Below are positions 3,928 to 45,077 of a stretch of DNA of 64,000 nucleotides, in pieces. Each line of letters starts with the position of its first letter. The stretch's first letter is position 1. Made by a program: the position numbers and the translations under genes. A model generated the notes under the pieces. That model was not told where the DNA came from. It searched no databases and was given only the letters and a program-made list of their open reading frames with translations. The stretch comes from an archaeon (lineage in GTDB: Archaea; Hydrothermarchaeota; Hydrothermarchaeia; Hydrothermarchaeales; BMS3B): contig JALSIP010000051.1 of NCBI GenBank assembly GCA_026989875.1, positions 1,161 through 65,160 of the forward strand. Direction: 5' to 3'.

Positions 3928-3928
3928 C

Positions 3929-6582: not shown

Positions 6583-7040
6583 TGCTTCAGAAGCTGAAGA
6601 ACCTCTCACACCTGCTGCCCATGAGCGTGACCTTCAAGCACCTCTTCAAGCCCCCCATCACCCTGCAGTACCCCGAACAGAGGCAGCAGCTCAAGCAGAG
6701 GTACAGGTGCCTGCAGAGGCTGGACGTGAAGAAGTGCATAAGCTGCGGCAACTGTGCGAGAGCCTGCCCCAACGGTGCCATCAAGATGAAGGTGGTGGGC
6801 ATAGAGGAGAAGAAGGTGAAGGATAAGGTGGTGAAGAAGGAGAAGAAGCATCCCGAGATTTACTTGGGAAGGTGCATGTTCTGCGGGCTGTGTGTTGATG
6901 CCTGCCCGGTTAAGGCGCTCACCTGGCGCAACGACGTTCTGGAGCTTGCCGAGTACACGAGGGAGGAGCTCTTCTATCCCTGGTGGAAGCTTGCGGGGTA
7001 TGAGGTTGAGCCGGCTAAGGAAGGGGGGAGCGGGCAGTGA
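6582..7040 (+). CDS. nuoI: complex I-like subunit I (2x[4Fe-4S] ferredoxin)
   Basis: Two CxxCxxCxxxCP motifs separated by a Lys-rich insert (EEKKVKDKVVKKEKKH). The ATG at 6582 overlaps the nuoH stop (ATGA). The longer ORF from 6450 is rejected because it overlaps nuoH. Confidence 0.85.
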   Translation: MLQKLKNLSHLLPMSVTFKHLFKPPITLQYPEQRQQLKQRYRCLQRLDVKKCISCGNCARACPNGAIKMKVVGIEEKKVKDKVVKKEKKHPEIYLGRCMFCGLCVDACPVKALTWRNDVLELAEYTREELFYPWWKLAGYEVEPAKEGGSGQ

Positions 7041-7534
7041 TTCAGGAGCTGGTGTTTCTGGTGATATCCCTCTTCGTGATAGCGGGCGCCGCAGGGGTGG
7101 TGTTTGCCCAGCGGCTGTTCCATGCGGTTCTCTCCTTGGCGCTCTGCCTGCTCTCGGTGGCTGCAGTTTACATCACCCTGGGTGCTGAATTTCTCGCGGT
7201 GATACAGGTGCTGGTTTATGCTGGTGGAGTGGTGGTGCTGTTCCTCTTTGCGGTCATGCTCACGAGGAGCGACCTGCAGCTCAGGCGGGAGCCCCTGGAG
7301 AGCTTTGCCCCCGTGTCAGCGGTGCTCTTCGGTGTGCTGGTGCTCTTCTACATCGCAAGAACAGGCTTCGTGCCTCAGGGCGAAAGAGCCCTTGCCCCCG
7401 GGGATGTGGCGAGCGTGGGGCAGGTGATATTCTCACCCAAGGCTTATGCTCTGCCCTTTGAGCTTGTGGGCATACTGCTGCTTGCGGCGATGGTCGGAGC
7501 CATATACCTGGCGAGGAGGGATGAGCGGTGGTAA
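7037..7534 (+). CDS. nuoJ: complex I-like subunit J
   Basis: 165 aa hydrophobic protein. Position and size fit NuoJ. Confidence 0.8.
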   Translation: MIQELVFLVISLFVIAGAAGVVFAQRLFHAVLSLALCLLSVAAVYITLGAEFLAVIQVLVYAGGVVVLFLFAVMLTRSDLQLRREPLESFAPVSAVLFGVLVLFYIARTGFVPQGERALAPGDVASVGQVIFSPKAYALPFELVGILLLAAMVGAIYLARRDERW

Positions 7535-7830
7535 CGGTGTACCACTATGTGTTTCTGGCGGCGGTGCTCTTCATAATAGGCGCCTACGGCATGCTTTCAG
7601 CGAGGAATGCCGTGAGGGTGCTCATGAGCATTGAGCTCATGCTGAACGCTGCAAACATCAACCTGGTTGCCTTCTCCAGCTACTCTGGCACTGTGAGCGG
7701 GCAGGCGCTTGCTTCCTTTGTCATCGCGGTGGCTGCAGCCGAGGCGGGTGTGGGCATAGCCATTCTCTTGGTGCTGTACAGGAGAATGAGAAGCGTGAAC
7801 CTGCGTGAGGCAGTGAGCATGAGGTGGTGA
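7528..7830 (+). CDS. nuoK: complex I-like subunit K
   Basis: 100 aa, three TM segments. NuoK/ND4L-like, with a conserved Glu in a TM segment. Confidence 0.8.
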   Translation: MVTVYHYVFLAAVLFIIGAYGMLSARNAVRVLMSIELMLNAANINLVAFSSYSGTVSGQALASFVIAVAAAEAGVGIAILLVLYRRMRSVNLREAVSMRW

Positions 7831-9671
7831 AGATGGTGGCTGAGTACTCCTGGCTGATACCCGTGTTTCCCCTGGCATCCTTTGTGCTCATCCTGCTCTT
7901 CGGCGGCAGGCTCAGAGAGGGTGGCGGGCACCTGGCTGTTGCTGCAGTGGGTGCGAGCATGCTTCTTTCGCTTGCTGTTATCTCGCACGTGGTGCGCTTT
8001 GGCAGCTATGAGAGCAGGGGCATCTCCTGGTTCGGCAGCGAAGCCTTCAGGTTCGGCGTGCTGGTGGACCCGCTGTCTGCGGTGATGCTGTTCGTGGTGA
8101 GCTTCGTGGGCTTCCTGATAGTGGTTTACTCCCTCGGATACATGCACGGCGACCCGGGGGTGCAGCGCTACTATGCCGAGATCTCCCTCTTCATAGCCAG
8201 CATGCTCTCCTTGGTTATAGCCAACAACCTGGTGTTCATGTTCATAAGCTGGGAGCTGGTGGGGCTCTGCTCCTACCTGCTGATAGGCTACTGGTACCGC
8301 AAGCCCAGTGCTGCCAGCGCAGCCAAGAAGGCGTTTCTCGTAACTAGGGTGGGTGACATCCTCTTCTTGGCTGGAATACTGGTGGTCTACAGGGAGTTCG
8401 GCACCCTGAACCTGAGCGAGGTGTTTGAGCTTGCTCCCGGGGTGGCGACAGCCACGCTCACCTTAGCCTCGCTGCTGCTCTTCGGCGGAGCCGTGGGCAA
8501 GAGCGCCCAGTTCCCGCTGCATGTGTGGCTCCCTGACGCCATGGAGGGTCCCACCACCGTCAGCGCCCTCATACATGCTGCGACGATGGTCAAGGCTGGC
8601 GTTTACTTGGTCGCCAGGATGTACCCCCTCTTCACCCCCGAATCCCTGCACGTGGTTGCCTGGATAGGCGGAATAACCGCCTTCATCGCAGCCAGCATGG
8701 CTGTAGTGATGACGGACCTGAAGAGGGTGATAGCCTACTCCACCGTCTCCCACTTGGGCTTCATGACCCTCGCCCTGGGTGTTGGAGGCTACGCCGCGGG
8801 CATCTTCCACCTGCTCAACCACTCCTTCTTCAAGGCGCTGCTCTTCCTGAGCGCGGGCGCTGTGCTGCATGCTGTGCACTCCCAGGACATACGGGACATG
8901 TCAGGGCTGTGGCGCAGGATGCCTGTAACGGGAACCGCCTTCTTCATAGGCGCCTGGTCGCTTTCAGGTCTGCCCCCCTGGAGCGGCTTCTGGAGCAAGG
9001 ACGAAATCATGGCGGCGGTGCACAGCTACAGCACGCCCCTCTTCTGGCTCACCGCGGTTACGGCGCTTCTCAGCGCGGTGTACATCTGGAGGCTGTTCTT
9101 CATAGTCTTCACGGGCAGGGAGAGCGAGCAGGCTAAGCATGCGCATGAAGCACCCTTGGTGATGCGGATACCCCTGATAATCCTCTCCCTGGGTGCGCTC
9201 TTCTCAGGCTTTGTGGTCTTTGCGGGCTTTGGCGAGTTCGTGCAGGGGGCTCTTGAGCATGCCCCCGAGGCAGCAGAGCACGCCTCCGGCAGCGTGATGC
9301 TGCTGAGCATCCTGCTGGCAGCCACTGGCACGGGGCTTGCGGCACTGACCTACTACCGTCCTGTGATTTCAGCCGCGAGGGTGAGGCGTGCCCTCGCCCC
9401 CGTGCACACCCTGCTGGTCAACCGCTACTACTTGGACCACCTGTACTACTTCTTTGCCACACGAGTGGTTGCGGACAGCGCAAGGGCTCTGAGAGGCGTT
9501 GACGAGTTCATAGTTGACGGCACCGTAAACGGCACGGGCAGGGCGGCGGTGTGCTCGGGCAGGAAGCTGCGTCTTCTGCAGAGTGGAGTGGTGCAGGACT
9601 ACGCCTCCTGGGTGCTTGCGGGTGCCTTCCTGCTGCTTGTGATTGCAGGGCTCATAGGAGGTGGTGTGTAG
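7824..9671 (+). CDS. nuoL: complex I-like antiporter-type subunit L
   Basis: 615 aa. Mrp/NuoL family motifs (WLPDAMEGPTTVSALIHAATMV). Confidence 0.9.
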   Translation: MVKMVAEYSWLIPVFPLASFVLILLFGGRLREGGGHLAVAAVGASMLLSLAVISHVVRFGSYESRGISWFGSEAFRFGVLVDPLSAVMLFVVSFVGFLIVVYSLGYMHGDPGVQRYYAEISLFIASMLSLVIANNLVFMFISWELVGLCSYLLIGYWYRKPSAASAAKKAFLVTRVGDILFLAGILVVYREFGTLNLSEVFELAPGVATATLTLASLLLFGGAVGKSAQFPLHVWLPDAMEGPTTVSALIHAATMVKAGVYLVARMYPLFTPESLHVVAWIGGITAFIAASMAVVMTDLKRVIAYSTVSHLGFMTLALGVGGYAAGIFHLLNHSFFKALLFLSAGAVLHAVHSQDIRDMSGLWRRMPVTGTAFFIGAWSLSGLPPWSGFWSKDEIMAAVHSYSTPLFWLTAVTALLSAVYIWRLFFIVFTGRESEQAKHAHEAPLVMRIPLIILSLGALFSGFVVFAGFGEFVQGALEHAPEAAEHASGSVMLLSILLAATGTGLAALTYYRPVISAARVRRALAPVHTLLVNRYYLDHLYYFFATRVVADSARALRGVDEFIVDGTVNGTGRAAVCSGRKLRLLQSGVVQDYASWVLAGAFLLLVIAGLIGGGV

Positions 9672-11116
9672 TGCTCCAGTACCTCATACTCCTGCCGCTT
9701 GCAGGCGCCATCGCGAGCTATTTCGCCGGCAGGCAGAGCAGCTCAGCCCCCAGGATAGTTGCCCTGGCGGTTAGCGTGGCAACCCTCGGCATAGCGGCGG
9801 CGGTGCTCAGAGCTGCTCCAGCCCAGGGGTTCATGAAGGAGCAGCTCAGCCTGAGCTGGATACCCAGCTTAGACATAGGCTTCACCCTCGGTGCTGATGC
9901 CCTGAGCGCGGCGCTGGTGGGGCTGACTGCACTTCTGGTGCTGGTGTCGGTGCTCGCTTCCTGGGATGTGGAGCACCGCTCCGGAAGCTACCACGCCTAC
10001 CTGCTGTGCATGCTTGCAGGTTTGATGGGCGTTTTCACGGCGCTTGACCTGTTCCTCTTCTTCCTGTTCTGGGAGATTGTGCTCATTCCCGCCTTCATGC
10101 TGGTAAACGGCTGGGGTGGAGAGAACAGGAAGTATGCAGCCATGAAGCTGCTCATCTACACCCACCTGGGCAGCCTGCTCATGCTGGTGGGCTTCCTGCT
10201 GATGTATGCACAGACGCACACCTTCTCCATGCTTGAGATGCGCCAGCTTCTCGGCGGAGAGAGCATGGAGTACAGGACGCTGGTGTTCCTGCTGGTTTTC
10301 GCGGGCTTCGCCTTCAAGATTCCCTTAGTGCCCTTCCACTCCTGGCTTCCGGATGCATACTCCCAGGCACCCACACCTGTGACAATCCTGCTTGCGGGGG
10401 TGCTCTCCAAGATGGGTGCCTACGGTCTTGTGAGGGTGGCTCTCGGCATCCTCCCGGCAGAGTTTGCGGTGTTCGCAAAGGCTATAGCGATAATGGCTCT
10501 GGTCACCGTCTTCTATGCAGCATTCTGCGCCCTTGCCCAGAACGAGGTTAAGCGGCTTCTCGCCTTCTCCAGCCTATCCCACATGGGCTTCCTGGTGCTG
10601 GGTGTGGCGAGCCTCTCCTTCATAGGCATGAAGGGCGCCATATTCCAGATGGTCAGCCACGGGCTGATAATAGCGCTGCTCTTCTTCTGCGCGGGCATGC
10701 TGGCGGCGAGGGGCTACGAGCTCAGAATCTCAAGGCTGGGCGGCGTGCTCAGGAGCTCGCCGCTGCTCGGCTGGGTCATAGTGTTTGCCTCCATGGCTTC
10801 TCTCGGGCTTCCGGGGCTGAGCGGCTTCGTGGCTGAGCTCAGCATTCTGCTGGGTCTGTTCCGTGAGTATCCCGTACTGGCGGGCATAGCTGTGCTCTCC
10901 CTCCCCCTGACAGCCGGCTACTACCTGTGGTTCCTGCAGCGCTCAATATACGGGGGCGATGCCGGGCTCAGGAGGAGCGGCGTAACCATGGTGGAGTTCC
11001 TGCCCGTTGCGGTTCTTGTTGCTCTGATAACCCTGCTCGGCGTTTACCCGGCACCCTTCATGGAGCTGGTTGGCAGCATAGCAGGGCAGCTTGTAAATGC
11101 GGTAGGAGGTGGCTGA
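9671..11116 (+). CDS. nuoM: complex I-like antiporter-type subunit M
   Basis: NuoM/ND4 motifs (FHSWLPDAYSQAPTPVT). Start is taken at the GTG overlapping the nuoL stop. The longer ORF from 9551 is rejected as an N-terminal extension. Confidence 0.85.
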   Translation: MLQYLILLPLAGAIASYFAGRQSSSAPRIVALAVSVATLGIAAAVLRAAPAQGFMKEQLSLSWIPSLDIGFTLGADALSAALVGLTALLVLVSVLASWDVEHRSGSYHAYLLCMLAGLMGVFTALDLFLFFLFWEIVLIPAFMLVNGWGGENRKYAAMKLLIYTHLGSLLMLVGFLLMYAQTHTFSMLEMRQLLGGESMEYRTLVFLLVFAGFAFKIPLVPFHSWLPDAYSQAPTPVTILLAGVLSKMGAYGLVRVALGILPAEFAVFAKAIAIMALVTVFYAAFCALAQNEVKRLLAFSSLSHMGFLVLGVASLSFIGMKGAIFQMVSHGLIIALLFFCAGMLAARGYELRISRLGGVLRSSPLLGWVIVFASMASLGLPGLSGFVAELSILLGLFREYPVLAGIAVLSLPLTAGYYLWFLQRSIYGGDAGLRRSGVTMVEFLPVAVLVALITLLGVYPAPFMELVGSIAGQLVNAVGGG

Positions 11117-12560
11117 AGTGCTGGCGGAGCTTCTTCCGGAGATTCTGCTGATAGGTGCGGCGCTGCTGCTGGTGCTACTCCAGGGCTTCTGCGGCAGGGA
11201 TGCCTGCGCAAAGCTTTCTGGCTACATCTCCTTAGCCGCATGCGGGGGCGCGCTGCTGCTGGTGTCCCTGCACTCTGGAGCGGGTGTTGAGCGCGTGCTC
11301 ATCCCTGAGATAATAAAGCTGGACGCCTTCAGCCTGTTCTTCAAGCTTCTCTTCCTCACCCTGAGCTTCCTGGTGATTCTGGGGTCTCTTGATGCGGTGA
11401 AGCGCTACAGGATGGGCGGCGAGTACTACACCATGCTGCTCTTCACCACCTTCGGCATGCTCATAGCAAGCATGGCGGTTGACCTGGCGGTGCTCTACAT
11501 AGCCGTGGAGCTTGCCACCATCTCAACCTTTGCGCTCGCCGCCTTCAGAAAGGACCGCCAGGGAGCAGAGGCTGGTGTGAAGTACTTCGTGATAGGTGCG
11601 CTCTCCTCGGCGCTGGTGCTCTTCGGCATATCCCTGCTCTACGGCATCGCCGGGAGCACCTCCCTCACCGCCATAGCGGAGGCGCTCGGAAGCTCCTCCG
11701 GTCCGGTGGCAAGCCTGGCGGTGGTCTTCCTCATCGCAGGCTTCGGCTACAAGATTGCGGCGGTGCCCTTCCACATGTGGGCGCCGGACACCTACCAGGG
11801 TGCACCCTCCACCGTCACCGCCTTCCTGGCGGGAGCCACAAAGAAGATGGCGTTCCTGGCGCTCATGCGCATCTTCATCGTGGCGCTCCCCGGGCTGGTG
11901 GAGAGCTGGGCGATGCTGTTTGCGGTGCTCGCGGTGCTCACCATGACCGTAGGCAACCTGGTGGCGCTGGTGCAGAGCAACATAAAGCGCATGCTCGCCT
12001 ACTCCAGCGTTGCCCAGGCAGGCTACGTGCTTGTGGCCTTTGCGGTGCTCTCCTCAAAGGCTGACCTCACCCTCGCCGCGGGGGCGGCGCTGCTGCACAT
12101 GTTCGTGCACGCCATAATGAAGGGCGGCGCCTTCCTGGCGGTGGCGGCGGCGGGCTCGGCAATCGCCGGCAGGGATATCTCCGACTTTGCCGGGCTTGGC
12201 AGGCGCATGCCGGTGACAGCCTTCACCCTGAGCATATTCCTGCTCTCCCTGGCGGGGATACCCTTCTTTGCCGGCTTCGTGAGCAAGTTCCTGATACTCA
12301 TGGCGAGCGTGAGCGCTGGCGGTGCCTACATAGCCCTGGGCGTGCTCCTGGTAATAAACAGCGTCATCTCCCTCTACTACTATGCTAAGGTGATAAGGGT
12401 GATGTACTTTGAGGGAGGGGAGGTGCACAGAGCAGAGGAGCCCGTGATGCTGGTTGCGGCGCTGGTGGTCTCAGCGATAATCGTGCTCTACGTGGGCATC
12501 TTCCCGGAATCTGCAATACAGCTGGCGAAGAGCAGCGCAGCCTCCCTCTTCACCCCCTGA
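11109..12560 (+). CDS. nuoN: complex I-like antiporter-type subunit N
   Basis: 483 aa. NuoN/ND2 motifs (FHMWAPDTYQGAPSTVTAFLA). Confidence 0.85.
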   Translation: MAEVLAELLPEILLIGAALLLVLLQGFCGRDACAKLSGYISLAACGGALLLVSLHSGAGVERVLIPEIIKLDAFSLFFKLLFLTLSFLVILGSLDAVKRYRMGGEYYTMLLFTTFGMLIASMAVDLAVLYIAVELATISTFALAAFRKDRQGAEAGVKYFVIGALSSALVLFGISLLYGIAGSTSLTAIAEALGSSSGPVASLAVVFLIAGFGYKIAAVPFHMWAPDTYQGAPSTVTAFLAGATKKMAFLALMRIFIVALPGLVESWAMLFAVLAVLTMTVGNLVALVQSNIKRMLAYSSVAQAGYVLVAFAVLSSKADLTLAAGAALLHMFVHAIMKGGAFLAVAAAGSAIAGRDISDFAGLGRRMPVTAFTLSIFLLSLAGIPFFAGFVSKFLILMASVSAGGAYIALGVLLVINSVISLYYYAKVIRVMYFEGGEVHRAEEPVMLVAALVVSAIIVLYVGIFPESAIQLAKSSAASLFTP

Positions 12561-26346: not shown

Positions 26347-27517
26347 GTGGGAGTTCTGGTGCACTGTGAGGAGGAAGGAGTACATCCTCGCCACGGTGCT
26401 GACACCCATATTCGCACTCCTCGTGTTTTCGCTGCCATCACTGCTGGTGGAGCACGGAGGTGGCGTGTACACGGTGGGGTATGTGGACCGCACCGGAATG
26501 TTTGAGCTCCCCGGGAGCGCCAGCTCTGGCATGGCAGGCAGGAGCGGCGAGAGCTACGTGTTTGTGAGGTACAGCAGCGAGCAGGAGGCTGAGCGTGAGC
26601 TGCTGGCGGGTGAGCTCAGCATGTACATGGTGATTCCCGAGGACTACATGGAAACCGGGAGGGTTGAGGTGTACACCACCAGGACACTGCCGCTGCTGCC
26701 TGTGGATGTGATTTCACAGAGCCTGGTGAGGCAGATGCTTGAGGGCAGGGTGGAGGATGAACGGCTGGTGGAGAGGGCGAGCAAGCCGGTGGAGCTGAGG
26801 GTGTACAGGCTGGATGAGAGGGGGGAGAGCAGAATGAATCTCGCCTCCTACATGGCTCCGGTAGCCACGGGGATGCTGCTGATGTTGGCGCTGGTTATCT
26901 CTTCTGGCTTCCTGGTGCACAGCATGAATGAGGAGAGGGAGAGCAGAATGCTGGAGGTGCTGCTGTCTTCAGCTTCTGCAGAGCAGGTGGTGGCAGGGAA
27001 GCTGCTGGGACTTGGCAGCGCGGGGCTGCTGCAGATGCTCGCATGGCTGGGCATGCTCTTACCTGTAGCAATAGTGCTTGCGGCTGAGGTTGAGCCTCAG
27101 ATGCTGCTGCTCGTGCTGGGATACTTCCTGCTGGGTTTCCTGCTGTACGCCTCAATAATGCTGGGCGTGGGCGCGGTGTGCTCCTCGCCAAGGGAGGCAC
27201 AGCAGCTCATGGGCGTGCTGGTGCTCAGCGCGGTGCTGCCCTTAGCCTTCGGGTTTATAATCTTCCAGAACACAGAAAGCACAGCCGCCAGAGCGGTGTC
27301 ACTTTTCCCGCTCACAGCACCCGTGAGCATGGTGTACCGCAGCTCCATGGGAGGCGTGCCCCCGGGTGAGCTGGTGCTCAGTGCGGTGCTGCTCCTCGCC
27401 TCCGCAGCGCTCACGCTGAAGCTCTCGGCAAGGCTGCTTATGGCGGGAATGCTGATGCGGGGCAAGGGCATGACAGAGGTGCTGAAGAGCCTGCTGACTC
27501 CGAAAGATTTATATTAA
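26300..27517 (+). CDS. ABC-2 family transporter permease
   Basis: 405 aa with an N-terminal TM, a large extracytoplasmic loop and five C-terminal TM segments. ABC-2/NatB-like topology. It is downstream of the ATPase. The start may be 26324. Confidence 0.75.
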   Translation: MSEWWRRMRGALVVAKWEFWCTVRRKEYILATVLTPIFALLVFSLPSLLVEHGGGVYTVGYVDRTGMFELPGSASSGMAGRSGESYVFVRYSSEQEAERELLAGELSMYMVIPEDYMETGRVEVYTTRTLPLLPVDVISQSLVRQMLEGRVEDERLVERASKPVELRVYRLDERGESRMNLASYMAPVATGMLLMLALVISSGFLVHSMNEERESRMLEVLLSSASAEQVVAGKLLGLGSAGLLQMLAWLGMLLPVAIVLAAEVEPQMLLLVLGYFLLGFLLYASIMLGVGAVCSSPREAQQLMGVLVLSAVLPLAFGFIIFQNTESTAARAVSLFPLTAPVSMVYRSSMGGVPPGELVLSAVLLLASAALTLKLSARLLMAGMLMRGKGMTEVLKSLLTPKDLY

Positions 27518-27542
27518 TGATAAATCATGATAAATCCTGACG

Positions 27543-29024
27543 GTGGTTCTGATGAAGCTTCCGCAGGCATTGCTCAGGTGCAGTGTTGAGCCTCTCATAG
27601 AGGAGAGCAACCTGGTGAGAGAGGCTAAGCAGGTTAAGTCGCTGGCTTACGTGGCGCTGCCGTGTCAGATGCAGGCTGTGAGAAAGGCGCAGCTCATGCT
27701 GCACAGAACACGCCAGGAGTGGCCCAGAAAGGTTAAGCTGGTAATCGGGCTGTTCTGCGCGGAGAGCTTCCCCTATGAGGAGCTGGTGAAGGTTGTGGAG
27801 AGCAAGGGGCTCAGCATGGACAGGATACGAAAGTGGGACATAAAGGGCAAGCTTCTGGGGTATCATGAGGAGGGCGTGCTCAAGATATCCCTGAAGGAGG
27901 CGAAGAAGTTTGCCAGAAGCAACTGCAGGTACTGCACCGACTACACCGCGGAGCTTGCTGACGTGAGCATAGGCGCGGTGGGCTCTGCTAAGGGCTGGAA
28001 CACGGTGATTGTGAGAACCCTGAGGGGGCTGAAGGCTGTCAGGGGCGCCATTGAGGCAGGTTATCTGGAGGTCAGGGAGCCTGACCTGGAGGGCGAGCGC
28101 GGGATACCGCTGCTGCGCAAGCTTGCCAAGCGCAAGCTCAGCACGGCAAAGAAGAACAGGGGCAAGGCTGAGGAGAAGGGCATGCGTGTCATGCACTTAG
28201 AGACCATGCACGAGAGAGACCTGAAGAAGCTTGAGGAGATGACAACAAAGGAGCACCGCATTGATGAGCTCCTCAGGGATGTGGTTGAGCCGGGGCTGTG
28301 CGTTACCTGCGGCGTCTGCGAGGCGGTTTGTGCGGAGAGCATCATAAAGATAGGTGAGGATGGCATGCCCCGCAAGCTCAGGGACTGCGAGTCCACGGAC
28401 TGCGGCAGGTGCTATGCCCTGTGCCCGAGGACCACGCTGCCCGCAGATGCGATTGAGGAGGAGCTCTTCGGAATCAGGAGGGTCAGCTACGAGGCAAGGG
28501 TGCTGGGGCAGTTCATAGAGATTCTGTCCTGCAGGGCTGGCAGGGAGGCTATCAGGAAGGTGGGGCAGGACGGCGGCGCTACAACGGCGCTGCTCGCATA
28601 CCTGCTGGATACCGGAGAGGTAGATGCAGCGGTGAGCGTCACTCAGGGGGAGAAGCCCTGGTATCCGGTGAGCTTTATCTCAACCACCAGCGGAGATGTG
28701 CTGAGATGCGCGGGCACAATTTACAGCACCGCCCCCACCATAGTGGCTGTGAAGCGTGCCCTGAGCCAGCACGAGGACTTCAGGAGGTACCTGAACTTCC
28801 TGCGTGAGAGGGGGCTGCTGCCGGAGCTGGAGCTGGTGGAGAGGCTGGCGAAGCCGCCGCTGGCTGCAGAGACGGCGCAGGTGGATGAGGAGGAGCTGAT
28901 GGCAAGAAGAAGAAAGGTTGAGGCGGCGATTGAGAGGCTGGCAAAGCCGGCGGTGAAGATGATGGTTGAGCAGGGCAAGGCTGAGAGGGCGGTTGAGCTG
29001 GTGGTGAAGGAGGGCGATGCATGA
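27543..29024 (+). CDS. F420-binding FrhB/FpoF-family oxidoreductase with circularly permuted domain order (FrhB_C - 2x[4Fe-4S] - FrhB_N)
   Basis: aa 35-170 carry the FrhB C-domain motifs (ALPCQMQAVRK...GLFC...C.YC.DYTAELADVSIGAVGS...TVIVRT). The middle region has CVTCGVCEAVC and C....CGRCYALCP. aa 330-400 carry the FrhB N-domain motif GQDGGATTALLAYLLDTGEVDAAV. The gene has its own TATA at 27508-27515. Confidence 0.7.
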   Translation: MVLMKLPQALLRCSVEPLIEESNLVREAKQVKSLAYVALPCQMQAVRKAQLMLHRTRQEWPRKVKLVIGLFCAESFPYEELVKVVESKGLSMDRIRKWDIKGKLLGYHEEGVLKISLKEAKKFARSNCRYCTDYTAELADVSIGAVGSAKGWNTVIVRTLRGLKAVRGAIEAGYLEVREPDLEGERGIPLLRKLAKRKLSTAKKNRGKAEEKGMRVMHLETMHERDLKKLEEMTTKEHRIDELLRDVVEPGLCVTCGVCEAVCAESIIKIGEDGMPRKLRDCESTDCGRCYALCPRTTLPADAIEEELFGIRRVSYEARVLGQFIEILSCRAGREAIRKVGQDGGATTALLAYLLDTGEVDAAVSVTQGEKPWYPVSFISTTSGDVLRCAGTIYSTAPTIVAVKRALSQHEDFRRYLNFLRERGLLPELELVERLAKPPLAAETAQVDEEELMARRRKVEAAIERLAKPAVKMMVEQGKAERAVELVVKEGDA

Positions 29025-29821
29025 GGCTGGGTGTGCTGAAGACAGGGAACATAGCCACGTCTCTGGTGCTGGAGCTGCTGCTGGATGAGCGCGCCGACAG
29101 GGAGCTGGAGGTGGATGTTTTTTCCACAGGCGCAAAGATGAGCCCGAAGGATGCTGAGAGGCTGCTGTCCTCGGTGAGGCTTGACAGCTACGCTCTGGTG
29201 GTTTATGTTACTCCAAACCCGGCAACTCCGGGACCGAAGAGGGTTATTGAGGCGCTGGCTGGAAGAAGAGCGGTGGTAATAGGGGATGCGCCGGGGATGA
29301 AGCTCAGGGACTGGCTGGAGGAGCTGGGGCTGGGGTACATCTTCGTGAAGGCGGACGCGATGATAGGCGCGAGGCGGGAGTTCCTGGACCCGAATGAGAT
29401 GGTGCTCTTCAACTCGGACATGCTCAGGGTGCTGGCGGTAACGGGCGCACTGAGGGTTGTGCAGGAGGAGATTGACAGAGCCATTGAGAGCAGCGATTAC
29501 CTGCCACGAGTGGTGGTGGATGCAGAGCTTGCGGCTGAGGCGGCTGGCTTCACCAGCCCCTACGCCAGAGCTAAGGCGATTGCCGCGTACAGGGCGTGCT
29601 CCTTAGTGGCTGAACTGAACACCTCCGCCTGCTTTGGCATGAAGGAGATGGAGAGGTATGTGCAGACCTGCGCTGCCGCCCACGAGCTGCTGCACTCCCT
29701 TGCGGAGATGTGCGATGAGGCGCTGGAGATGGAGAAGCACCAGGATTCGCTGCTCAGAACACCCCACGCCAGGGACGGCAGGAGGCTTAGAAAGCGCAGG
29801 CTGATGGAGAAGCCGGGGTGA
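29021..29821 (+). CDS. mtd: F420-dependent methylene-tetrahydromethanopterin dehydrogenase
   Basis: Strong Mtd signature throughout (GNIATS..LELLLDERADR, TPNPATPGPK, VVIGDAPGMKLRD, GLGYIFVKADAMIGARREFLDPNEM, LRTPHARDG). 266 aa. Confidence 0.9.
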   Translation: MRLGVLKTGNIATSLVLELLLDERADRELEVDVFSTGAKMSPKDAERLLSSVRLDSYALVVYVTPNPATPGPKRVIEALAGRRAVVIGDAPGMKLRDWLEELGLGYIFVKADAMIGARREFLDPNEMVLFNSDMLRVLAVTGALRVVQEEIDRAIESSDYLPRVVVDAELAAEAAGFTSPYARAKAIAAYRACSLVAELNTSACFGMKEMERYVQTCAAAHELLHSLAEMCDEALEMEKHQDSLLRTPHARDGRRLRKRRLMEKPG

Positions 29822-30576
29822 TGCTGACCTTCTCCCTTCCGCTGCCCGCAGGCACCTGCGATGCCTGCGGCGCATGCGTGTATGCCTGTCCGGAAGGCGC
29901 TGTTACGCTGGATGAGAGGCACAGGCTGAGGGTGGAGCATGAGAGGTGCACCCGCTGCCTCAGGTGCGTTGAAGCATGCAGGGACAGGGAGGCGCTCAGG
30001 CCCGAGCTGCACGGCTACCTGCCTGGCTTTGACTGCTCGGAGTGCGGCTATGAGGACTGCGAGAGCTTTGCCGAGGGTGTGACTCAAGCGGAAGAGCTGC
30101 GGAGGTGCCCCCACCTCGGCGGGAGGATGCGCAGGGCGCTGGAGCTGATTCTCAGGAGCGAGCTACTGCCGGAGGTCAGGGTGAGCGACAGCCAGCTTCC
30201 AACGCCTCACGGCGTGTTTCCCGTGGGGAGCCCCGGGAAGCGTTCGCCTGTAATTGCCACCTCCGACTACCTGCACACGGTTATGACGCTCACTGCAGCG
30301 CTTGAGCACTGCAGCATAGACGCTTACTTAGCGGTGGTGCCGGCTGAGGGGTACTGCATGAGGCTTGCGGTTACCCTGGGAACGCTGAGGCTTGAGAGGC
30401 TGCCCGAGATTCTGAGGGAGGTGGAGCACAGGGTTGAGCACAGGGTGGTGATTCTGCCCAGGGCGGTGGAGACAAGACGGGCTGGCAGCTGGAGGGTGGT
30501 GCATGCCCCGAGCAGGGCTGAGGAGCTCCCGGCGTTTCTCTTAGCCTTTTCCAGGGCTTACGGGCTGAGGGTCTGA
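29818..30576 (+). CDS. iron-sulfur protein: 2x[4Fe-4S] ferredoxin + RnfB-N-type Fe-S domain (CxxCGxxxCxxFAE) + uncharacterised C-terminal domain
   Basis: CDACGACVYACP and CTRCLRCVEAC, then DCSECGYEDCESFAEG (PF04060-like). The C-terminal ~130 aa have no recognised homolog. ATGA overlap with mtd. Confidence 0.6.
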   Translation: MMLTFSLPLPAGTCDACGACVYACPEGAVTLDERHRLRVEHERCTRCLRCVEACRDREALRPELHGYLPGFDCSECGYEDCESFAEGVTQAEELRRCPHLGGRMRRALELILRSELLPEVRVSDSQLPTPHGVFPVGSPGKRSPVIATSDYLHTVMTLTAALEHCSIDAYLAVVPAEGYCMRLAVTLGTLRLERLPEILREVEHRVEHRVVILPRAVETRRAGSWRVVHAPSRAEELPAFLLAFSRAYGLRV

Positions 30577-31112: not shown

Positions 31113-31646
31113 CTAAAGCACACCTGCCCTGAGGTACATGCCTATTCCTGTGAGCACCGCAAGCACGTAGCTTGCTATACCAAGAATACCTGTCAGAATG
31201 TGGAGCTGCTCGCTCCTGCCCGTGCCGTGCCTGAAGAATCTACCCCTGTTGAGCATGCCCCACAGGAAAGAGGCGGTGAGCAGCAGCGTGGAGAGGGTGA
31301 TGAAGATGACGTGGGGCACGAGCAAGCCGGTGGCTCTGAAGGCTTCCCTGCCCCCGGCTATCTCCAGGGCTATGCCTCGCTCGTAGCCGTAGTACAGCGC
31401 AAGGGCGAGGAGGAAGAGCAGGTAGGCGGCATACATGAGCTGTGGGTGCCTGCTGGGCAGCCTTGCGGGCGAGCGCATGGAAATCATACCATCCACGGCG
31501 CCGGCTATGAAGAGAACCATGGCTGCAAGCAGGATGTAGGGGTGGTAGAGCATGCGATATAGTGGTGCCGCGTGATTTATAAAGGATGCGGTGGCGCAGG
31601 GGGTGCTCTGCAAAGGCTTATATAGCGTGGTGAGGAAAGTCAGCAC
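31113..31646 (-). CDS. small polytopic membrane protein, possibly DUF420-like (cytochrome-oxidase-associated)
   Basis: Four predicted TM segments in about 140-177 aa. It is divergent from the cbb3 oxidase genes. The family assignment is tentative. Confidence 0.35.
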   Translation of the reverse strand: MLTFLTTLYKPLQSTPCATASFINHAAPLYRMLYHPYILLAAMVLFIAGAVDGMISMRSPARLPSRHPQLMYAAYLLFLLALALYYGYERGIALEIAGGREAFRATGLLVPHVIFITLSTLLLTASFLWGMLNRGRFFRHGTGRSEQLHILTGILGIASYVLAVLTGIGMYLRAGVL

Positions 31647-31741: not shown

Positions 31742-33025
31742 GTGCTGGCGGTGAAGTTTGTTTACCCTGACTTTCTCTCAGGCTATGCCTGGCTGCAGTT
31801 CGGCAGGCTTCGCCCGGTGCACGTCACCTTAGCTGCCTTCGGCTGGCTCTCCATGGTGCAGGTGGCAATGGCTTACTACGCCGTGCCCCGCCTTGCTAAG
31901 CGGGAGCTGTACAGCGAGAGGCTTGCAAGGCTGAGCGTGCTCCTCTGGAACCTCTTCATCCTCCTCGCCGCCGCAACGCTTCTTGCAGGAATGACGCAGG
32001 GCAGGGAGTATGCAGAGCTTGTCTATCCCCTTGACCTGCTCTTCCTGCTGCTTCTGGGCGTGGTTGCCTACAACCTGGTGCGCACGGTTCTGGCAAGGAG
32101 GGAGGAGAAGCTCTACGTCAGCCTCTGGTACTTCCTGGCGGCGCTGGTGTGGATGCCGGTGGTTTACTTTGTGGGCAACGCCATGTGGGCTGGAGGAGCG
32201 CTCTACGGTGTTAACGACGCCATAGTCAACTGGTTCTACGGGCACAACATCTTAGGGCTGTGGTTCACGCCCCTCGGCGTGGGTGCTGCCTACTACCTGC
32301 TGCCGAAGCTGGTGAGGAAGCCCCTCTACAGCCACAGGCTATCGCTTCTGGGCTTCTGGACGCTGGGGCTCTTCTACCCCTGGGTGGGTACCCACCACCT
32401 GATTTTCGGTCCCGTACCCGTGTGGGCGCAGACGGTTGCAATTGCCGCAAGCGTTGCCATGCTTCTGCCCGTGCTGGCGGTGACGGTGAACTTCTGGAAG
32501 ACCATTGAGGGCAGGTGGCACCTGCTCTCGCAGGCGGAGCAGGGCAGGCGCTTTGCCCAGAGCGACTGCACAGCTTTAAAGTTTCTGGTGCTGGGAGGAG
32601 TGTGGTACCTGCTCACCTGCCTGCAGGGTCCCTTCCAGGCGCTAAGGGCTGTGCAGCCGTATGTGCACTTCACCAACTGGGTTGTGGCACATGCCCACCT
32701 TGCCCTTCTTGGAGCCTTCAGCTTCTGGGGGTTTGCGTGCATCTACTACGTCATGCCCAGGCTGACCGGTAAAGAGCTCAGCCCGCGGCTTGCAAGGGCT
32801 CACTTCTACCTGCTCACCCTCGGCTTGAGCGGCTTCGTGGCGAGCCTCACCATAGCGGGGCTGATTCAGGGTAGCTCGTGGCAGGCGGGTGTGGCTTTCG
32901 TGAAGGTGGTGGCGGCGCTTAAGCCCTACCTAATCGTAAGGCTTGCCTCGGCGGCGCTCATGGTAGCCTCGGTTTATCTCTTCCTGTACGCCTTCTTCAG
33001 CTCGCTGCGGGGGGTGCAGAGGTGA
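31742..33025 (+). CDS. ccoN: cbb3-type (C-family) heme-copper oxidase catalytic subunit CcoN
   Basis: Ligand patterns are R..H...AAFGW (heme b His), WFYGHN (CuB His), GTHHLIFGP (CuB HH) and VVAHAHLALLG (heme b3/b His). Only 427 aa from the first canonical start. An in-frame upstream hydrophobic segment (31634-31741) would supply TM1. Confidence 0.8.
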   Translation: MLAVKFVYPDFLSGYAWLQFGRLRPVHVTLAAFGWLSMVQVAMAYYAVPRLAKRELYSERLARLSVLLWNLFILLAAATLLAGMTQGREYAELVYPLDLLFLLLLGVVAYNLVRTVLARREEKLYVSLWYFLAALVWMPVVYFVGNAMWAGGALYGVNDAIVNWFYGHNILGLWFTPLGVGAAYYLLPKLVRKPLYSHRLSLLGFWTLGLFYPWVGTHHLIFGPVPVWAQTVAIAASVAMLLPVLAVTVNFWKTIEGRWHLLSQAEQGRRFAQSDCTALKFLVLGGVWYLLTCLQGPFQALRAVQPYVHFTNWVVAHAHLALLGAFSFWGFACIYYVMPRLTGKELSPRLARAHFYLLTLGLSGFVASLTIAGLIQGSSWQAGVAFVKVVAALKPYLIVRLASAALMVASVYLFLYAFFSSLRGVQR

Positions 33026-33897
33026 GGGCGCTGAGCATAGCCGCTGGAGTGGCGGCGCTGGTGCTTGCCGCGATTGCCGTTACGGTGCTTTTACCCATGG
33101 GCGACCCCTCGCTGTACCAGCCGTCTCCAGGGGTGAAGCCCCTTAATGAGCTGGAGGAGATGGGAAGGCAGGTGTACATCCGGGAGGGATGCTGGTACTG
33201 CCACACCCAGCAGGTGCGCAACCTGAGCATGGATGTGCAGTACTACGGCAGGGTTTCCTCTCCCGGCGAGTACGCCTATGATTCGCCGGTGCTCCTGGGC
33301 ACGGAGCGCACAGGTCCTGATCTGGCGAGGATTGGCGGGGTTTACACCGACGACTGGCACTTAGCGCACTTCATCAACCCCCGCTACGTGGTGCCAGCTT
33401 CTATAATGCCCAGCTTCTCCTACCTGAGCGATGATGAGCTGGAGGCGCTTATCGCCTACGTGCAGAGCCTGGGCGGTGAGGAGGCGAGGAGAAAGGCTGA
33501 GATGCAGCGCAGGATGAAGCAGGCGATGCTGGAGGCGCAGCGCTTGGGCATAGAAGAGGAGATGATGCAGGCGAGGGTGCCGGCGAGCTACAGGGGGCTT
33601 GAGAATCCGCTGGCAGGCAGAGAGGCGGTGCTTGTGGGGAAGAGGCTGTTCGCCTTCTACTGCAGAGGCTGCCACGGCAGCGCTGGCGCTGGAGATGGTC
33701 CTGCTGCGAGGTACCTTAACCCCAGGCCTGCCAACTTCACCAGCGCGGAGTTCATGGGTAGCGTGGAGGACGGCAGGCTCTACTACTCCATACTGAACGG
33801 TGTGCCGGGCACGGCGATGCACCCCTTTAAAGCCAGGCTGACGGAGCAGGAGGTGTGGAGCTTAGTAGCCTACCTGCGCACGCTTCAGGAGGAGTGA
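33022..33897 (+). CDS. ccoO: cbb3 oxidase cytochrome c subunit: CcoO-like mono-heme domain fused to a second c-type heme domain (CcoP-like)
   Basis: N-terminal TM; GRQVYIREGCWYCHTQ; CcoO signature GTERTGPDLARIGG.Y.D.WH. A second CRGCHG heme site sits in a C-terminal cytochrome c domain. Confidence 0.8.
   Translation: MRALSIAAGVAALVLAAIAVTVLLPMGDPSLYQPSPGVKPLNELEEMGRQVYIREGCWYCHTQQVRNLSMDVQYYGRVSSPGEYAYDSPVLLGTERTGPDLARIGGVYTDDWHLAHFINPRYVVPASIMPSFSYLSDDELEALIAYVQSLGGEEARRKAEMQRRMKQAMLEAQRLGIEEEMMQARVPASYRGLENPLAGREAVLVGKRLFAFYCRGCHGSAGAGDGPAARYLNPRPANFTSAEFMGSVEDGRLYYSILNGVPGTAMHPFKARLTEQEVWSLVAYLRTLQEE

Positions 33898-42908: not shown

Positions 42909-45077
<2,169 letters not shown>

What the first reader, a model, noticed from the sequence alone, without database searches (positions are those of the whole stretch)
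27508..30576. Three-gene F420/H4MPT redox module: permuted FrhB-like protein, Mtd, and a poly-Fe-S protein with an RnfB-type cluster domain
The three genes are tightly coupled, with 4-nt overlaps at 29021 and 29818, behind one promoter. mtd is usually monocistronic or sits with other C1-pathway genes. Here it is flanked by two Fe-S/F420 proteins. This suggests a complex that couples methylene-H4MPT oxidation to ferredoxin or membrane electron transfer via F420. The C-terminal ~130 aa of the third protein match nothing I recognise.
Basis: inference. Interest (0 to 1): 0.65.

Follow-up and report, generated by a model that had tools for sequence, protein, structure and literature searches.

The report
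Permuted FrhB–Mtd operon plus corrinoid protein
In this uncultured hydrothermal archaeon, the C1-pathway enzyme Mtd is always encoded directly behind a rearranged (circularly permuted) F420-reacting iron-sulfur flavoprotein, which probably links the F420 pool to ferredoxin-type carriers, and one narrow lineage has added a rare small iron-sulfur/vitamin-B12-type protein as a third gene.

Summary
There are three overlapping + strand genes. g1 (27552-29024) is a circularly permuted FrhB-family protein, ordered C-domain, 2x[4Fe-4S] ferredoxin, N-domain, plus an 87-aa helical tail. g2 (29021-29821) is a canonical F420-dependent Mtd. g3 (29818-30576) has three [4Fe-4S] motifs.

The 'unknown' C-terminus of g3 is the corrinoid-binding domain of the CFeSP large subunit/HgcA type.

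The conserved unit is g1-mtd, not the triplet. Every long-form g1 locus with downstream sequence (14 loci) has mtd 3-12 nt downstream. These loci share a conserved TATA box plus a tandem repeat, ATGATAAATC x2. Shorter permuted paralogues sit upstream of mtd, near mer, or upstream of a pyruvate:ferredoxin oxidoreductase operon. The family is almost confined to Hydrothermarchaeota. Of 60 other mtd loci, 52 have no FrhB-like neighbour.

g3 follows mtd only in the window's own clade (77-83% nt identity). Its other orthologues pair with a CxxCxxCC gene instead.

Most likely, g1 shuttles electrons between F420H2 (made or used by Mtd) and Fe-S partners. g3 is a lineage-specific small corrinoid/Fe-S protein of unproven connection.

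I rate it a new variant of a known kind, of moderate interest.

The parts
27503..27535 (+). Promoter/operator. It consists of a BRE/TATA-like AAAGATTTATATTAA (TATA 27508-17, overlapping the stop codon of the upstream ABC permease gene) followed by the tandem direct repeat ATGATAAATC|ATGATAAAT (27517-27535).
   Evidence: The full 19-nt repeat is unique in the window (expected 0.01 matches allowing up to 3 mismatches). Its core, GATAAATCATGATAA, occurs once in each of 15/15 long-form g1 loci, 30-45 nt upstream of the start, and in none of the 162 other loci.
27552..29024 (+). g1: a circularly permuted FrhB-family F420-reactive flavo-Fe-S protein of 490 aa. ATG 27552 is preferred over GTG 27543 because a GGTGG Shine-Dalgarno-like element lies 6 nt upstream and homologues start at the same position.
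27636..28085 (+). g1 FrhB_FdhB_C domain. It carries conserved Cys 38, 69, 125 and 128 (490-aa numbering).
   Evidence: Pfam 7.5e-43. The Cys are invariant in 25 sequences. They align with the Cys of 8RIU_B.
28281..28439 (+). g1 internal 2x[4Fe-4S] ferredoxin domain (C250/253/256/260 and C279 or C284/287/291).
   Evidence: aligns with residues 10-83 of 8RIU_B.
28524..28751 (+). g1 FrhB_FdhB_N domain with the invariant GQDGG motif.
   Evidence: Pfam 1.4e-22.
28752..29021 (+). g1 C-terminal ~87-aa helical tail, 39% charged. It is present only in the long, always-mtd-linked clade.
   Evidence: No Pfam match.
29021..29821 (+). [quoted passage not shown]
   Evidence: Full-length alignment to M. kandleri Mtd 1QV9, 6e-72.
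29818..30576 (+). g3: a soluble 252-aa protein made of a ferredoxin domain, a CFeSP/RnfB-type FeS domain and a corrinoid-binding domain.
29851..29985 (+). g3 2x[4Fe-4S] ferredoxin domain (C14/17/20/24 and C44/47/50/54).
30019..30114 (+). g3 PF04060 'FeS' domain (C73, C76, C81, C97-P).
   Evidence: Pfam 2.3e-08, above the gathering cutoff. It aligns with AcsC residues 7-55 and RnfB residues 39-87. All four Cys are invariant.
30196..30546 (+). g3 corrinoid-binding (Rossmann-like) domain of the CFeSP large subunit/HgcA type, with the invariant motif EGYCMRLAxTLGT.
   Evidence: PF03599 4.8e-10 (profile positions 270-361); NCBIfam HgcAB_like 1.6e-23 and CdhE 4.4e-20. PDB 4DJD_C residues 323-440. 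The top 6 Foldseek hits are CFeSP large subunits and HgcA. Cap-helix alignment.

Best explanation
**The unit.** The conserved functional unit is a two-gene operon transcribed from a conserved TATA/operator. It encodes a circularly permuted FrhB-type flavo-iron-sulfur protein (g1) followed by canonical Mtd.

**Proposed mechanism.** Mtd transfers hydride between methylene-H4MPT and free coenzyme F420. g1 has an FrhB-like FAD/F420 site, one proximal [4Fe-4S] cluster and a two-cluster ferredoxin domain. It exchanges those electrons between F420H2 and a one-electron Fe-S partner. The partner could be ferredoxin, a ferredoxin-like domain, or a respiratory complex. This ties the F420-dependent steps of the H4MPT Wood-Ljungdahl methyl branch to the ferredoxin/Fe-S pool of a Hydrothermarchaeota cell that has no obvious Frh hydrogenase partner.

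**The third gene.** g3 is a recent addition in one genus-level clade. It is a soluble mini corrinoid/iron-sulfur protein: an HgcB-like ferredoxin, a CFeSP-type [4Fe-4S] domain and a CFeSP/HgcA-type corrinoid domain, with no TIM barrel and no membrane anchor. Its three clusters most plausibly wire electrons to its own cofactor.

**Shown.** Gene identities, domain order, conserved synteny and the promoter element.

**Inferred.** F420 reactivity of g1, the identity of its partner, the direction of flow, corrinoid binding by g3, and any g1-to-g3 electron transfer.
For: **g1 is a permuted FrhB-type module.**
- Domain order and conserved cofactor motifs.
- The nearest solved relatives are the F420-reductase subunits bolted onto CODH and Fwd in Ca. 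Ethanoperedens (8RIU_B 5e-55, 8RJA_E) and FrhB itself (3ZFS_C 8e-54). Their function is described in PMC11493965.
- The AF2 model has pLDDT 82.6. Foldseek gives FrhB at rmsd 2.0 A over 188 columns and 8RIU_B at 1.4 A over 175.

**Synteny of g1 homologues.**
- mtd lies 3-12 nt downstream of every long-form g1 that has downstream sequence: L011-13, L016-18, L020-22, L095-98 and the window.
- Short-form clade A sits upstream of mtd (L015, L024, L027, L037, L099, L126). In L023 a TnpB insertion lies between the two genes. In L031 the downstream partner region holds mer (Mer equivalog, 441 bits).
- Short-form clade B sits upstream of POR gamma-delta-alpha-beta, with or without ftr.
- A neighbour-joining tree separates these three clades by context.

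**Precedent.** FrhB paralogues in PFOR and CODH clusters are already described in ANME-1 (PMC9012536).

**Promoter/operator.** Conserved in 15/15 long-form loci.

**g3.**. The related ~206-aa FeS+corrinoid family sits in a same-strand cluster with the corrinoid activator RACo in Desulfobacteraceae.
Against: - There are no activity, expression or interaction data.
- Mtd has no Fe-S cluster and works with free F420 in all studied organisms. Co-regulation alone would explain the synteny.
- Some FrhB-family members (HCAR) do not use F420 (ranks 15-20).
- g1 scores below the NCBIfam cutoffs for FrhB (240 against 269) and FpoF (130 against 475).
- g3 orthologues outside the window's clade are never next to mtd.
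- The g3 corrinoid loop is divergent: DTxG has become P(A/S)EG, and Leu occupies the HgcA-Cys/CFeSP-Thr position.
- The g3 AF2 model is poor (pLDDT 51).
- From established redox potentials (own knowledge, not tested here), F420H2 at about -340 to -360 mV is a weak reductant for Co(II)/Co(I) at about -500 mV.
Confidence: 0.55

Rival explanations
1. g1 is the detachable F420H2-input subunit (a functional FqoF/FpoF analogue) of the 11-subunit Nuo/Fqo-like membrane complex encoded at 3089-12560 in the same window. F420H2 made by Mtd (and Mer) during oxidative operation of the pathway would then be fed into the quinone pool and on to the cbb3 oxidase or other terminal reductases.
For: - The Nuo-like operon (A, B, CD, H, I, J, K, L, M, N) has no E/F/G and no FqoF gene.
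- A cbb3 oxidase and KatG lie nearby.
- g1 contains the same three modules as FpoF and hits FpoF models at 1e-38.
- In Methanosarcina, fpoF is encoded apart from the fpo operon (own knowledge).
- The long-form tail could serve as a docking element.
Against: - FpoF/FqoF model scores are far below their cutoffs and lower than the FrhB scores.
- Paralogues of the same permuted family sit with POR, a soluble enzyme.
- No synteny with nuo genes was seen in any of the loci.
- g1 has no membrane segment.
Confidence: 0.2
2. g1, Mtd and g3 form one physical complex that oxidises methylene-H4MPT and passes electrons through bound or channelled F420 and the Fe-S clusters of g1 and g3 to ferredoxin or the membrane.
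For: - Overlapping start and stop codons suggest translational coupling.
- One conserved promoter serves the operon.
- g3 has an N-terminal ferredoxin domain that could accept electrons from g1.
- The clade-specific tail of g1 could bind Mtd.
Against: - g3 is absent from the g1-mtd operon in every lineage but one. None of 61 metagenomic mtd loci has g3.
- g3 orthologues elsewhere pair with a CxxCxxCC gene.
- g3 has no membrane anchor.
- The 'RnfB-type' domain of g3 is shared with CFeSP, which fits its corrinoid domain better.
Confidence: 0.1
3. g3 is functionally unrelated to g1 and Mtd. It landed behind mtd through a rearrangement in one clade and is simply co-transcribed. Its real role is that of a stand-alone small corrinoid/Fe-S protein, in methyl transfer or a redox task shared with the CxxCxxCC partner seen elsewhere.
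For: - Nine loci of orthologues (51-54% identity) lie in unrelated neighbourhoods, always tail-to-tail with PF03692.
- The wider ~206-aa family occurs in unrelated contexts: a RACo cluster and an ars-like cluster.
- No CxxCxxCC gene is found in the window.
Against: The GTGATG overlap with mtd is kept in all members of the clade despite 17-23% nucleotide divergence. This argues for selection on co-expression.
Confidence: 0.35
4. The permuted order of g1 is an artefact, caused by misassembly, a frameshift, or fusion of two partial FrhB genes.
For: None beyond the unusual domain order.
Against: - The same order is seen in about 25 full-length homologues from many independent assemblies and in 24 genome loci.
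- The AF2 model is confident.
- The linker and termini are conserved.
Confidence: 0.01

Closest known systems
F420-reductase (FrhB-like) subunits attached to CODH (zeta subunit, PDB 8RIU_B) and to formylmethanofuran dehydrogenase (8RJA_E) of Ca. Ethanoperedens thermophilum; also the FrhB6/FrhB7 paralogues in ANME-1 PFOR and CODH gene clusters
   Same: - The modules match: a 2x[4Fe-4S] ferredoxin domain plus the FrhB N and C domains, with conserved Cys and the GQ(D/N)GG motif.
- These are the best PDB sequence hits (5e-55).
- The logic is the same: an F420 module encoded next to a partner enzyme. The POR-linked paralogues of g1 mirror ANME-1 FrhB6.
   Different: - The order is circularly permuted (C-domain, Fd, N-domain instead of Fd, N, C).
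- The long form has an extra 87-aa helical tail.
- The gene neighbour is Mtd (or Mer). That enzyme is itself F420-dependent and has no Fe-S clusters, so the 'electronic bridge into a metalloenzyme' mechanism cannot simply be copied.
- The family is confined almost entirely to Hydrothermarchaeota.
FrhB of the F420-reducing [NiFe] hydrogenase, and FpoF/FqoF of F420H2 dehydrogenase
   Same: Same fold and cofactor motifs. Foldseek gives rmsd 2.0-3.3 A and 37-40% identity over the C-domain. NCBIfam E-values are 3e-71 (FrhB) and 6e-39 (FpoF).
   Different: - Scores fall below every equivalog cutoff.
- The domain order is permuted.
- No frhA/frhG or fpo genes are adjacent. Carr et al. 2019 noted lone 'frhB' genes in these genomes and read them as part of a hydrogenase.
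Corrinoid iron-sulfur protein large subunit (AcsC/CdhE)
   Same: - The N-terminal CX2CX4CX15-16CP [4Fe-4S] domain and the C-terminal corrinoid-binding Rossmann domain both match.
- These are the top Foldseek hits.
   Different: - The central TIM barrel of about 250 aa is missing.
- No small-subunit gene (AcsD/CdhD) is adjacent.
- An extra N-terminal two-cluster ferredoxin domain is present.
- The NCBIfam score is 72 against a cutoff of 306.
- The DTxG loop is altered.
HgcA/HgcB and HgcAB-like fusion proteins
   Same: A corrinoid domain is combined with a 2x[4Fe-4S] ferredoxin. NCBIfam HgcAB_like scores 1.6e-23. Identity to the HgcA model 9a0b_A is 34% over 125 columns.
   Different: - The order is reversed, with the ferredoxin first.
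- There are no transmembrane helices.
- The cap-helix Cys of the N(V/I)WCA motif is replaced by Leu.
- An extra FeS domain is present.
Unnamed ~206-213-aa 'FeS + CdhD-domain' proteins of Desulfobacterales, Dehalococcoidia and Promethearchaeota
   Same: They share the FeS domain plus corrinoid domain without a TIM barrel, and align over g3 residues ~57-242.
   Different: - They lack the N-terminal ferredoxin domain.
- They retain the DTxG loop.
- Identity to g3 is 24-32%.
- They are uncharacterised.

Membership tests
FrhB/FdhB/FpoF family (F420-reactive flavo-Fe-S subunit) | Both the FrhB_FdhB_N and FrhB_FdhB_C domains are present | tested here: met
   PF04432 scores 146 bits and PF04422 scores 80 bits, both far above the gathering cutoffs.
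FrhB/FdhB/FpoF family (F420-reactive flavo-Fe-S subunit) | Canonical order (ferredoxin)-N-domain-C-domain | tested here: not met
   The order is C (32-181), Fer4 (247-299), N (328-403). Against 8RIU_B, two HSPs fall in swapped order.
FrhB/FdhB/FpoF family (F420-reactive flavo-Fe-S subunit) | [quoted passage not shown] | tested here: met
   C38, C69, C125, C128 and GQDGG are invariant in 25 sequences and align with 8RIU_B. Their assignment as ligands is by homology only.
FrhB/FdhB/FpoF family (F420-reactive flavo-Fe-S subunit) | F420(H2)-dependent redox activity | not testable with these tools
   This needs biochemistry.
FrhB proper / FpoF proper (NCBIfam equivalogs) | Score above the curated cutoff | tested here: not met
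   NF006807: 240 against 269. TIGR03289: 210 against 331. NF006808: 134 against 444. NF040616: 130 against 475.
Mtd (F420-dependent methylene-H4MPT dehydrogenase) | Full-length match above the curated cutoffs | tested here: met
   PF01993: 337 bits. NF002162 equivalog: 330 against 297. 1QV9: 6e-72 over residues 6-265.
CFeSP large subunit (AcsC/CdhE) | N-terminal [4Fe-4S] domain with CX2CX4CXnCP | tested here: met
   PF04060 at 2.3e-08. C73, C76, C81 and C97-P are invariant.
CFeSP large subunit (AcsC/CdhE) | Central TIM-barrel domain | tested here: not met
   Only positions 270-361 of the 387-position PF03599 profile match. About 30 residues lie between the FeS and corrinoid domains. NF003195 scores 72 against 306.
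CFeSP large subunit (AcsC/CdhE) | C-terminal corrinoid-binding domain | tested here: met
   By homology only: it aligns with 4DJD_C residues 323-440 at 9e-10, and the top Foldseek hits agree. Corrinoid binding itself was not tested.
CFeSP large subunit (AcsC/CdhE) | Adjacent small subunit (AcsD/CdhD) and acs/cdh genes | tested here: not met
   Neighbouring genes are mtd, Ham1 and cbb3 oxidase.
HgcA / HgcAB-like fusion | Cap-helix Cys in the N(V/I)WCA motif | tested here: not met
   Leu183 occupies that column. The motif reads GYCMRLA.
HgcA / HgcAB-like fusion | Transmembrane domain | tested here: not met
   The maximum 19-residue Kyte-Doolittle hydropathy is 1.17.
RnfB | Score above the subfamily cutoff, a membrane anchor, and rnf gene context | tested here: not met
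   TIGR01944 scores 38.5 against 68.7. There is no hydrophobic N-terminus. No rnf genes lie nearby.

The most novel reading that the evidence does not exclude
The permuted FrhB uses its clade-specific helical tail to dock onto the Mtd oligomer. This would create a ferredoxin-linked (F420-channelling) methylene-H4MPT dehydrogenase, a Fe-S-wired version of a step thought to use only free F420. In the window's lineage the same wire would also reduce g3. g3 would be the founding member of a self-activating class of soluble corrinoid proteins related to CFeSP and HgcA, handling C1 or methyl groups of the H4MPT pathway.
Probability: 0.1. Interest if true: 0.8.

Novelty: new variant of a known kind. 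Interest (0 to 1): 0.55.

Why it matters
**What the lone 'frhB' genes are.** Hydrothermarchaeota are abundant, uncultured subsurface archaea. Their Wood-Ljungdahl/H4MPT pathway is the basis of their proposed carboxydotrophy. How they reduce or re-oxidise F420 without a complete Frh hydrogenase has not been explained. The lone 'frhB' genes were read as hydrogenase parts. This analysis shows those genes are a distinct, circularly permuted FrhB subfamily. Its clades are each tied to one partner: Mtd, Mer or POR. That gives a concrete and testable candidate for the F420-ferredoxin link in these organisms.

**Extension of a recent finding.** It was recently shown that FrhB modules are plugged onto CO2-forming enzymes in alkane oxidisers. 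The present case extends that idea to a new architecture and new partners.

**Regulation.** The conserved operator gives a handle on regulation of the operon.

**g3.** g3 and the wider ~206-aa family define an unstudied branch of the CFeSP/HgcA corrinoid-protein superfamily.

Tried and rejected
1. **Artefact hypothesis for the permutation.** Rejected, because collinear homologues from many assemblies exist.
2. **g3 as RnfB.** Rejected on score, lack of an anchor, and context.
3. **g3 as a true CFeSP large subunit or as HgcA.** Rejected. It has no TIM barrel, no small subunit, no cap-helix Cys and no TM segment.
4. **A CxxCxxCC partner gene in the window.** Searched for and not found.
5. **AF2 on g3 with its 7-sequence alignment.** The model was poor (pLDDT 51). 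Only the C-terminal domain is usable, although the top Foldseek hits were consistent.
6. **Bacterial promoter/terminator scan.** Not used, because the organism is an archaeon. Upstream regions were compared across loci instead.
7. **The operator in short-form loci.** No exact match was found, only TGATAAT-like fragments.
8. **Literature searches.** Searches for 'circular permutation' + FrhB, for HgcA + CdhE + paralog, and for Hydrothermarchaeota + frhB found no prior description. The library excludes most subscription journals, so absence is not proof.
9. **Mtd-FrhB fusion proteins.** No such Rosetta-stone fusion was seen among the 120 listed g1 homologues.
10. **Foldseek and the permutation.** Foldseek aligns sequentially, so it matched only about 190 of about 280 FrhB residues. 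The permuted fit of the N-domain could not be quantified.


Full report
**Observation**

The three ORFs are present on the + strand.
- g1 runs 27543-29024. The likely true start is ATG 27552, which has a GGTGG element 6 nt upstream and matches the start of homologues.
- g2 runs 29021-29821.
- g3 runs 29818-30576.

The junctions read gcATGAgg at 29021 and ggGTGATGct at 29818.

The window comes from an uncultured archaeon of the phylum Hydrothermarchaeota. The nearest relatives of all three proteins are 'Candidatus Hydrothermarchaeota' and 'Candidatus Pyrohabitans' MAGs.

**g1 is a true circular permutation of an FrhB/FpoF-type protein**

Pfam places the FrhB_FdhB_C domain at residues 32-181, a two-cluster ferredoxin motif at 247-299, and FrhB_FdhB_N at 328-403.

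Against the PDB, the best hit is 8RIU_B (5e-55), matched in two swapped pieces:
- g1 238-406 aligns to residues 10-173 (ferredoxin domain plus N-domain).
- g1 29-203 aligns to residues 176-346 (C-domain).

8RIU_B and 8RJA_E are the F420-reductase subunits attached to CO dehydrogenase and formylmethanofuran dehydrogenase in Ca. Ethanoperedens. Their order is ferredoxin (1-83), then F420-reductase domain (84-349), then a dimerisation extension (PMC11493965).

About 25 homologues from independent assemblies are collinear with g1. In all of them the following are invariant: Cys38/69/125/128, the ferredoxin cysteines, and GQDGG.

- The AF2 model is confident (pLDDT 82.6, pTM 0.78).
- Its best structural matches are FrhB (rmsd 2.0 A over 188 columns), Fsr, 8RIU_B (1.4 A over 175 columns), FdhB and the FdhB-like subunit of the Elp-Hdr complex.

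Residues 404-490 form a helical tail that is 39% charged, has no family match, and has moderate model confidence. g1 has no membrane segment. It scores below the NCBIfam cutoffs for FrhB and FpoF. It is therefore a distinct subfamily.

**g2 is ordinary Mtd**

It scores above the Pfam and NCBIfam equivalog cutoffs. It aligns end to end with M. kandleri Mtd 1QV9.

**g3: the 'unknown' C-terminus is a corrinoid-binding domain**

Residues 127-243 match:
- PF03599 (profile positions 270-361, 4.8e-10, above the gathering score);
- the C-terminal part of CdhE (4.4e-20);
- HgcAB-like (1.6e-23) and HgcA (5.6e-8) models;
- residues 323-440 of the CFeSP large subunit 4DJD_C.

The AF2 model is poor overall (pLDDT 51). 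Its C-terminal domain reaches pLDDT 62-78 and has a beta-alpha-beta pattern. The six best Foldseek hits are five CFeSP large-subunit structures and the HgcA model.

Upstream of this domain lie two invariant CxxCxxCxxxC motifs and the CFeSP/RnfB-type motif C73-x2-C76-x4-C81-x15-C97-P.

g3 is thus a ferredoxin domain, an FeS domain and a corrinoid domain, with no TIM barrel and no membrane anchor.

In a joint alignment:
- the cap-helix position that is Cys in HgcA holds Leu183 in g3; in the AcsC-like sequences of this alignment that column is Ser, Cys or Val (the Thr of solved CFeSP is taken from the alignment);
- the usual DTxG loop reads P(A/S)EG;
- Cys180, invariant within Hydrothermarchaeota, is Ser in a distant full-length member.

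Corrinoid binding is therefore plausible but unproven.

**How common is g3?**

Only 7 clusters were found among 5.8 billion proteins. An exhaustive profile search found 3 full-length representatives among 1.84 billion.

The next relatives are ~206-213-aa proteins with the FeS and corrinoid domains but no ferredoxin domain.
- At least 291 clusters reached the threshold in the profile search.
- The members seen are from Desulfobacterales, Dehalococcoidia and Promethearchaeota.
- Their only names are '(Fe-S)-binding protein' or 'ACDS gamma'.

In Desulfobacteraceae, one such gene lies in a same-strand cluster with RACo, the reductive activator of corrinoid enzymes. This supports a corrinoid role for that wider family. 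After them come true AcsC/CdhE and HgcA proteins.

**Synteny: the conserved unit is g1-mtd**

*Long form (~487 aa, with tail).* mtd follows within 3-12 nt in every locus that has downstream sequence: L011-13, L016-18, L020-22, L095-98 and the window. Identity to g1 falls as low as 53%, and the flanking genes differ between loci.

*Short form (344-380 aa, 37-42% identity), two clades.*
- One clade sits directly upstream of mtd (L015, L024, L027, L037, L099, L126). In L023 a TnpB element is inserted on the opposite strand between the two genes. L031 has the order g1, one ORF, then mer (Mer equivalog, 441 bits).
- The other clade sits directly upstream of a four-subunit 2-oxoacid:ferredoxin oxidoreductase operon, often followed by ftr.

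A neighbour-joining tree separates the three clades according to context.

In the genome scan, the permuted family (L016-L039) comes almost only from Hydrothermarchaeota, with one Archaeoglobaceae MAG.

*Viewed from mtd.* Of 60 metagenomic mtd loci with at least 1.2 kb of upstream sequence:
- 52 have no FrhB-like gene at all;
- 4 have the permuted gene directly upstream;
- 1 has a weak match;
- 3 have a normal-order FrhB gene nearby.

The link is therefore specific, not a general property of mtd.

**g3 is a lineage-specific add-on**

It follows mtd only in the window, L010 and L095-97. These loci share 77-83% nucleotide identity over the operon, and all keep the GGGGTGATG junction.

In nine loci from other Hydrothermarchaeota, the 51-54%-identical orthologues are nowhere near mtd or FrhB. 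They are always tail-to-tail with a PF03692 CxxCxxCC gene, with overlapping ends. One MAG has two such pairs. No CxxCxxCC gene occurs in the window. None of 61 metagenomic mtd loci has g3 downstream.

**Promoter**

It is followed by a perfect tandem repeat, ATGATAAATC|ATGATAAAT (27517-27535).

The block 'AAAG(A/T)TTTATATTA...ATGATAAATCATGATAA' is conserved upstream of all long-form g1 genes, even though the upstream genes differ. The full 19-nt repeat is unique in the window.

Its position between the TATA box and the expected transcription start suggests an operator. That reading rests on inference from archaeal promoter architecture. The element supports a single regulated transcription unit that starts at g1.

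**Mechanism**

*Shown:* the gene identities, the permutation, the clade-specific partners and the shared promoter.

*Inferred:* by homology, g1 reacts with F420 at a flavin and passes single electrons through three [4Fe-4S] clusters.

Its paralogues are tied to Mtd and Mer, the two F420-dependent steps of the methyl branch, and to POR, a ferredoxin-dependent enzyme. The simplest reading is therefore an F420-to-Fe-S (ferredoxin) oxidoreductase module.

Standard potentials, taken from my own knowledge and not tested here, are:
- methenyl/methylene-H4MPT, about -390 mV;
- F420, about -340 to -360 mV;
- ferredoxin, -420 to -500 mV.

With these values, Fd(red) to F420 to methenyl-H4MPT is downhill in the reductive (carboxydotrophic or autotrophic) direction. 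Methylene-H4MPT to F420H2 to a quinone-linked acceptor is downhill in the oxidative direction.

The window also holds an 11-subunit Nuo/Fqo-like operon with no input subunit (3089-12560), a cbb3 oxidase and KatG. g1 acting as an FqoF-like input module is therefore a live rival.

Whether g1 binds Mtd physically, with the tail as the obvious candidate, cannot be decided here.

For g3, the most likely role is a small corrinoid/Fe-S protein whose clusters serve to reduce its own cofactor. A supply of electrons from g1 is possible. It is thermodynamically awkward, however, and is not supported by synteny outside one clade.

**Comparison and novelty**

FrhB paralogues encoded next to PFOR and CODH were catalogued in ANME-1 (PMC9012536). 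The CODH and Fwd cases were proven structurally in Ca. Ethanoperedens. Carr et al. 2019 noted lone 'frhB' genes in Hydrothermarchaeota and read them as hydrogenase-related.

I found no description of the permuted architecture, of the FrhB-Mtd/Mer pairing, of the operator, or of the g3 architecture in the searchable library. That library omits most subscription journals.

I rate this a new variant of a known kind. It would be useful to specialists in archaeal C1 and F420 metabolism, and it is testable, but it does not overturn anything.

Noticed in passing
window 27503-27535; also L011-13, L016-22, L025, L095-98, 30-45 nt upstream of g1: A conserved TATA-like box is followed by a perfect tandem direct repeat, ATGATAAATC|ATGATAAAT. 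It is present once in each of 15/15 long-form g1 loci and in none of the other 162 loci. It is probably an operator for an unknown regulator. Some short-form loci carry TGATAAT-like fragments (L032, L038).
   Followed up: partly
window 3089-12560 (+): An 11-subunit Nuo/Fqo-like complex I operon (A, B, fused CD, H, I, J, K, L, M, N) has no NuoEFG and no FqoF/FpoF input subunit. It lies 15 kb upstream of g1.
   Followed up: partly
window 31742-33897 (+) and 42909-45038 (-): A cbb3-type cytochrome oxidase (CcoN, and a CcoO fused to a cytochrome c domain) and a catalase-peroxidase (KatG) are present in an archaeon carrying H4MPT-pathway genes. This suggests microaerobic capacity. An unannotated 177-aa ORF with no Pfam hit (31113-31646, -) sits just upstream of ccoN.
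   Followed up: no
L001-L009 (e.g. L007 326-1081 and 1049-1678): In other Hydrothermarchaeota, g3 orthologues are always convergent with a ~200-220-aa PF03692 CxxCxxCC (YkgJ-type) gene, with 3' ends overlapping by about 30 nt. One MAG (GCA_054032255.1) has two such pairs. This is a conserved gene pair of unknown function.
   Followed up: partly
L178-L180 (5001-5621) and L181 (5001-5642): The unnamed ~206-213-aa 'FeS + corrinoid-domain' family (at least 291 clusters) appears in two contexts. In Desulfobacteraceae it lies in a same-strand cluster with RACo, DUF6951, DUF2284 and DUF1638. In another contig it lies beside ArsR-type HTH, SBF/Acr3-type transporter, LMW phosphatase (ArsC-like) and radical SAM/SPASM genes.
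   Followed up: no
L023 1236-2504 (-): A TnpB (IS200/IS605-family RNA-guided nuclease) gene is inserted on the opposite strand exactly between the permuted FrhB gene and mtd.
   Followed up: yes
L031 9-2838: A short permuted FrhB paralogue is followed by a 201-aa ORF with no family match and then mer (Mer equivalog, 441 bits). The same MAG (FS_2_bin.2) also has an FrhB-mtd pair (L024).
   Followed up: partly
L177 991-2997; L100 1664-4656; L159 4001-5843: In three metagenome contigs from unidentified organisms, a normal-order (Fer4-N-C) FrhB-like gene lies next to mtd: directly upstream in L177, 1.2 kb downstream in L100, and convergent in L159. This may be an independent origin of the FrhB-Mtd association.
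   Followed up: no
L030 3189-4124 and L039 924-1331: A second, normal-order FrhB-like gene lies about 1.4 kb upstream of the permuted, POR-linked gene. This may be relevant to how the permutation arose (duplication followed by truncation).
   Followed up: no
L095 7011-7910: In the closest relative of the window, an N6/N4 DNA methyltransferase gene is inserted between the ABC permease gene and the g1 promoter. The promoter/operator block is retained intact downstream of the insertion.
   Followed up: no
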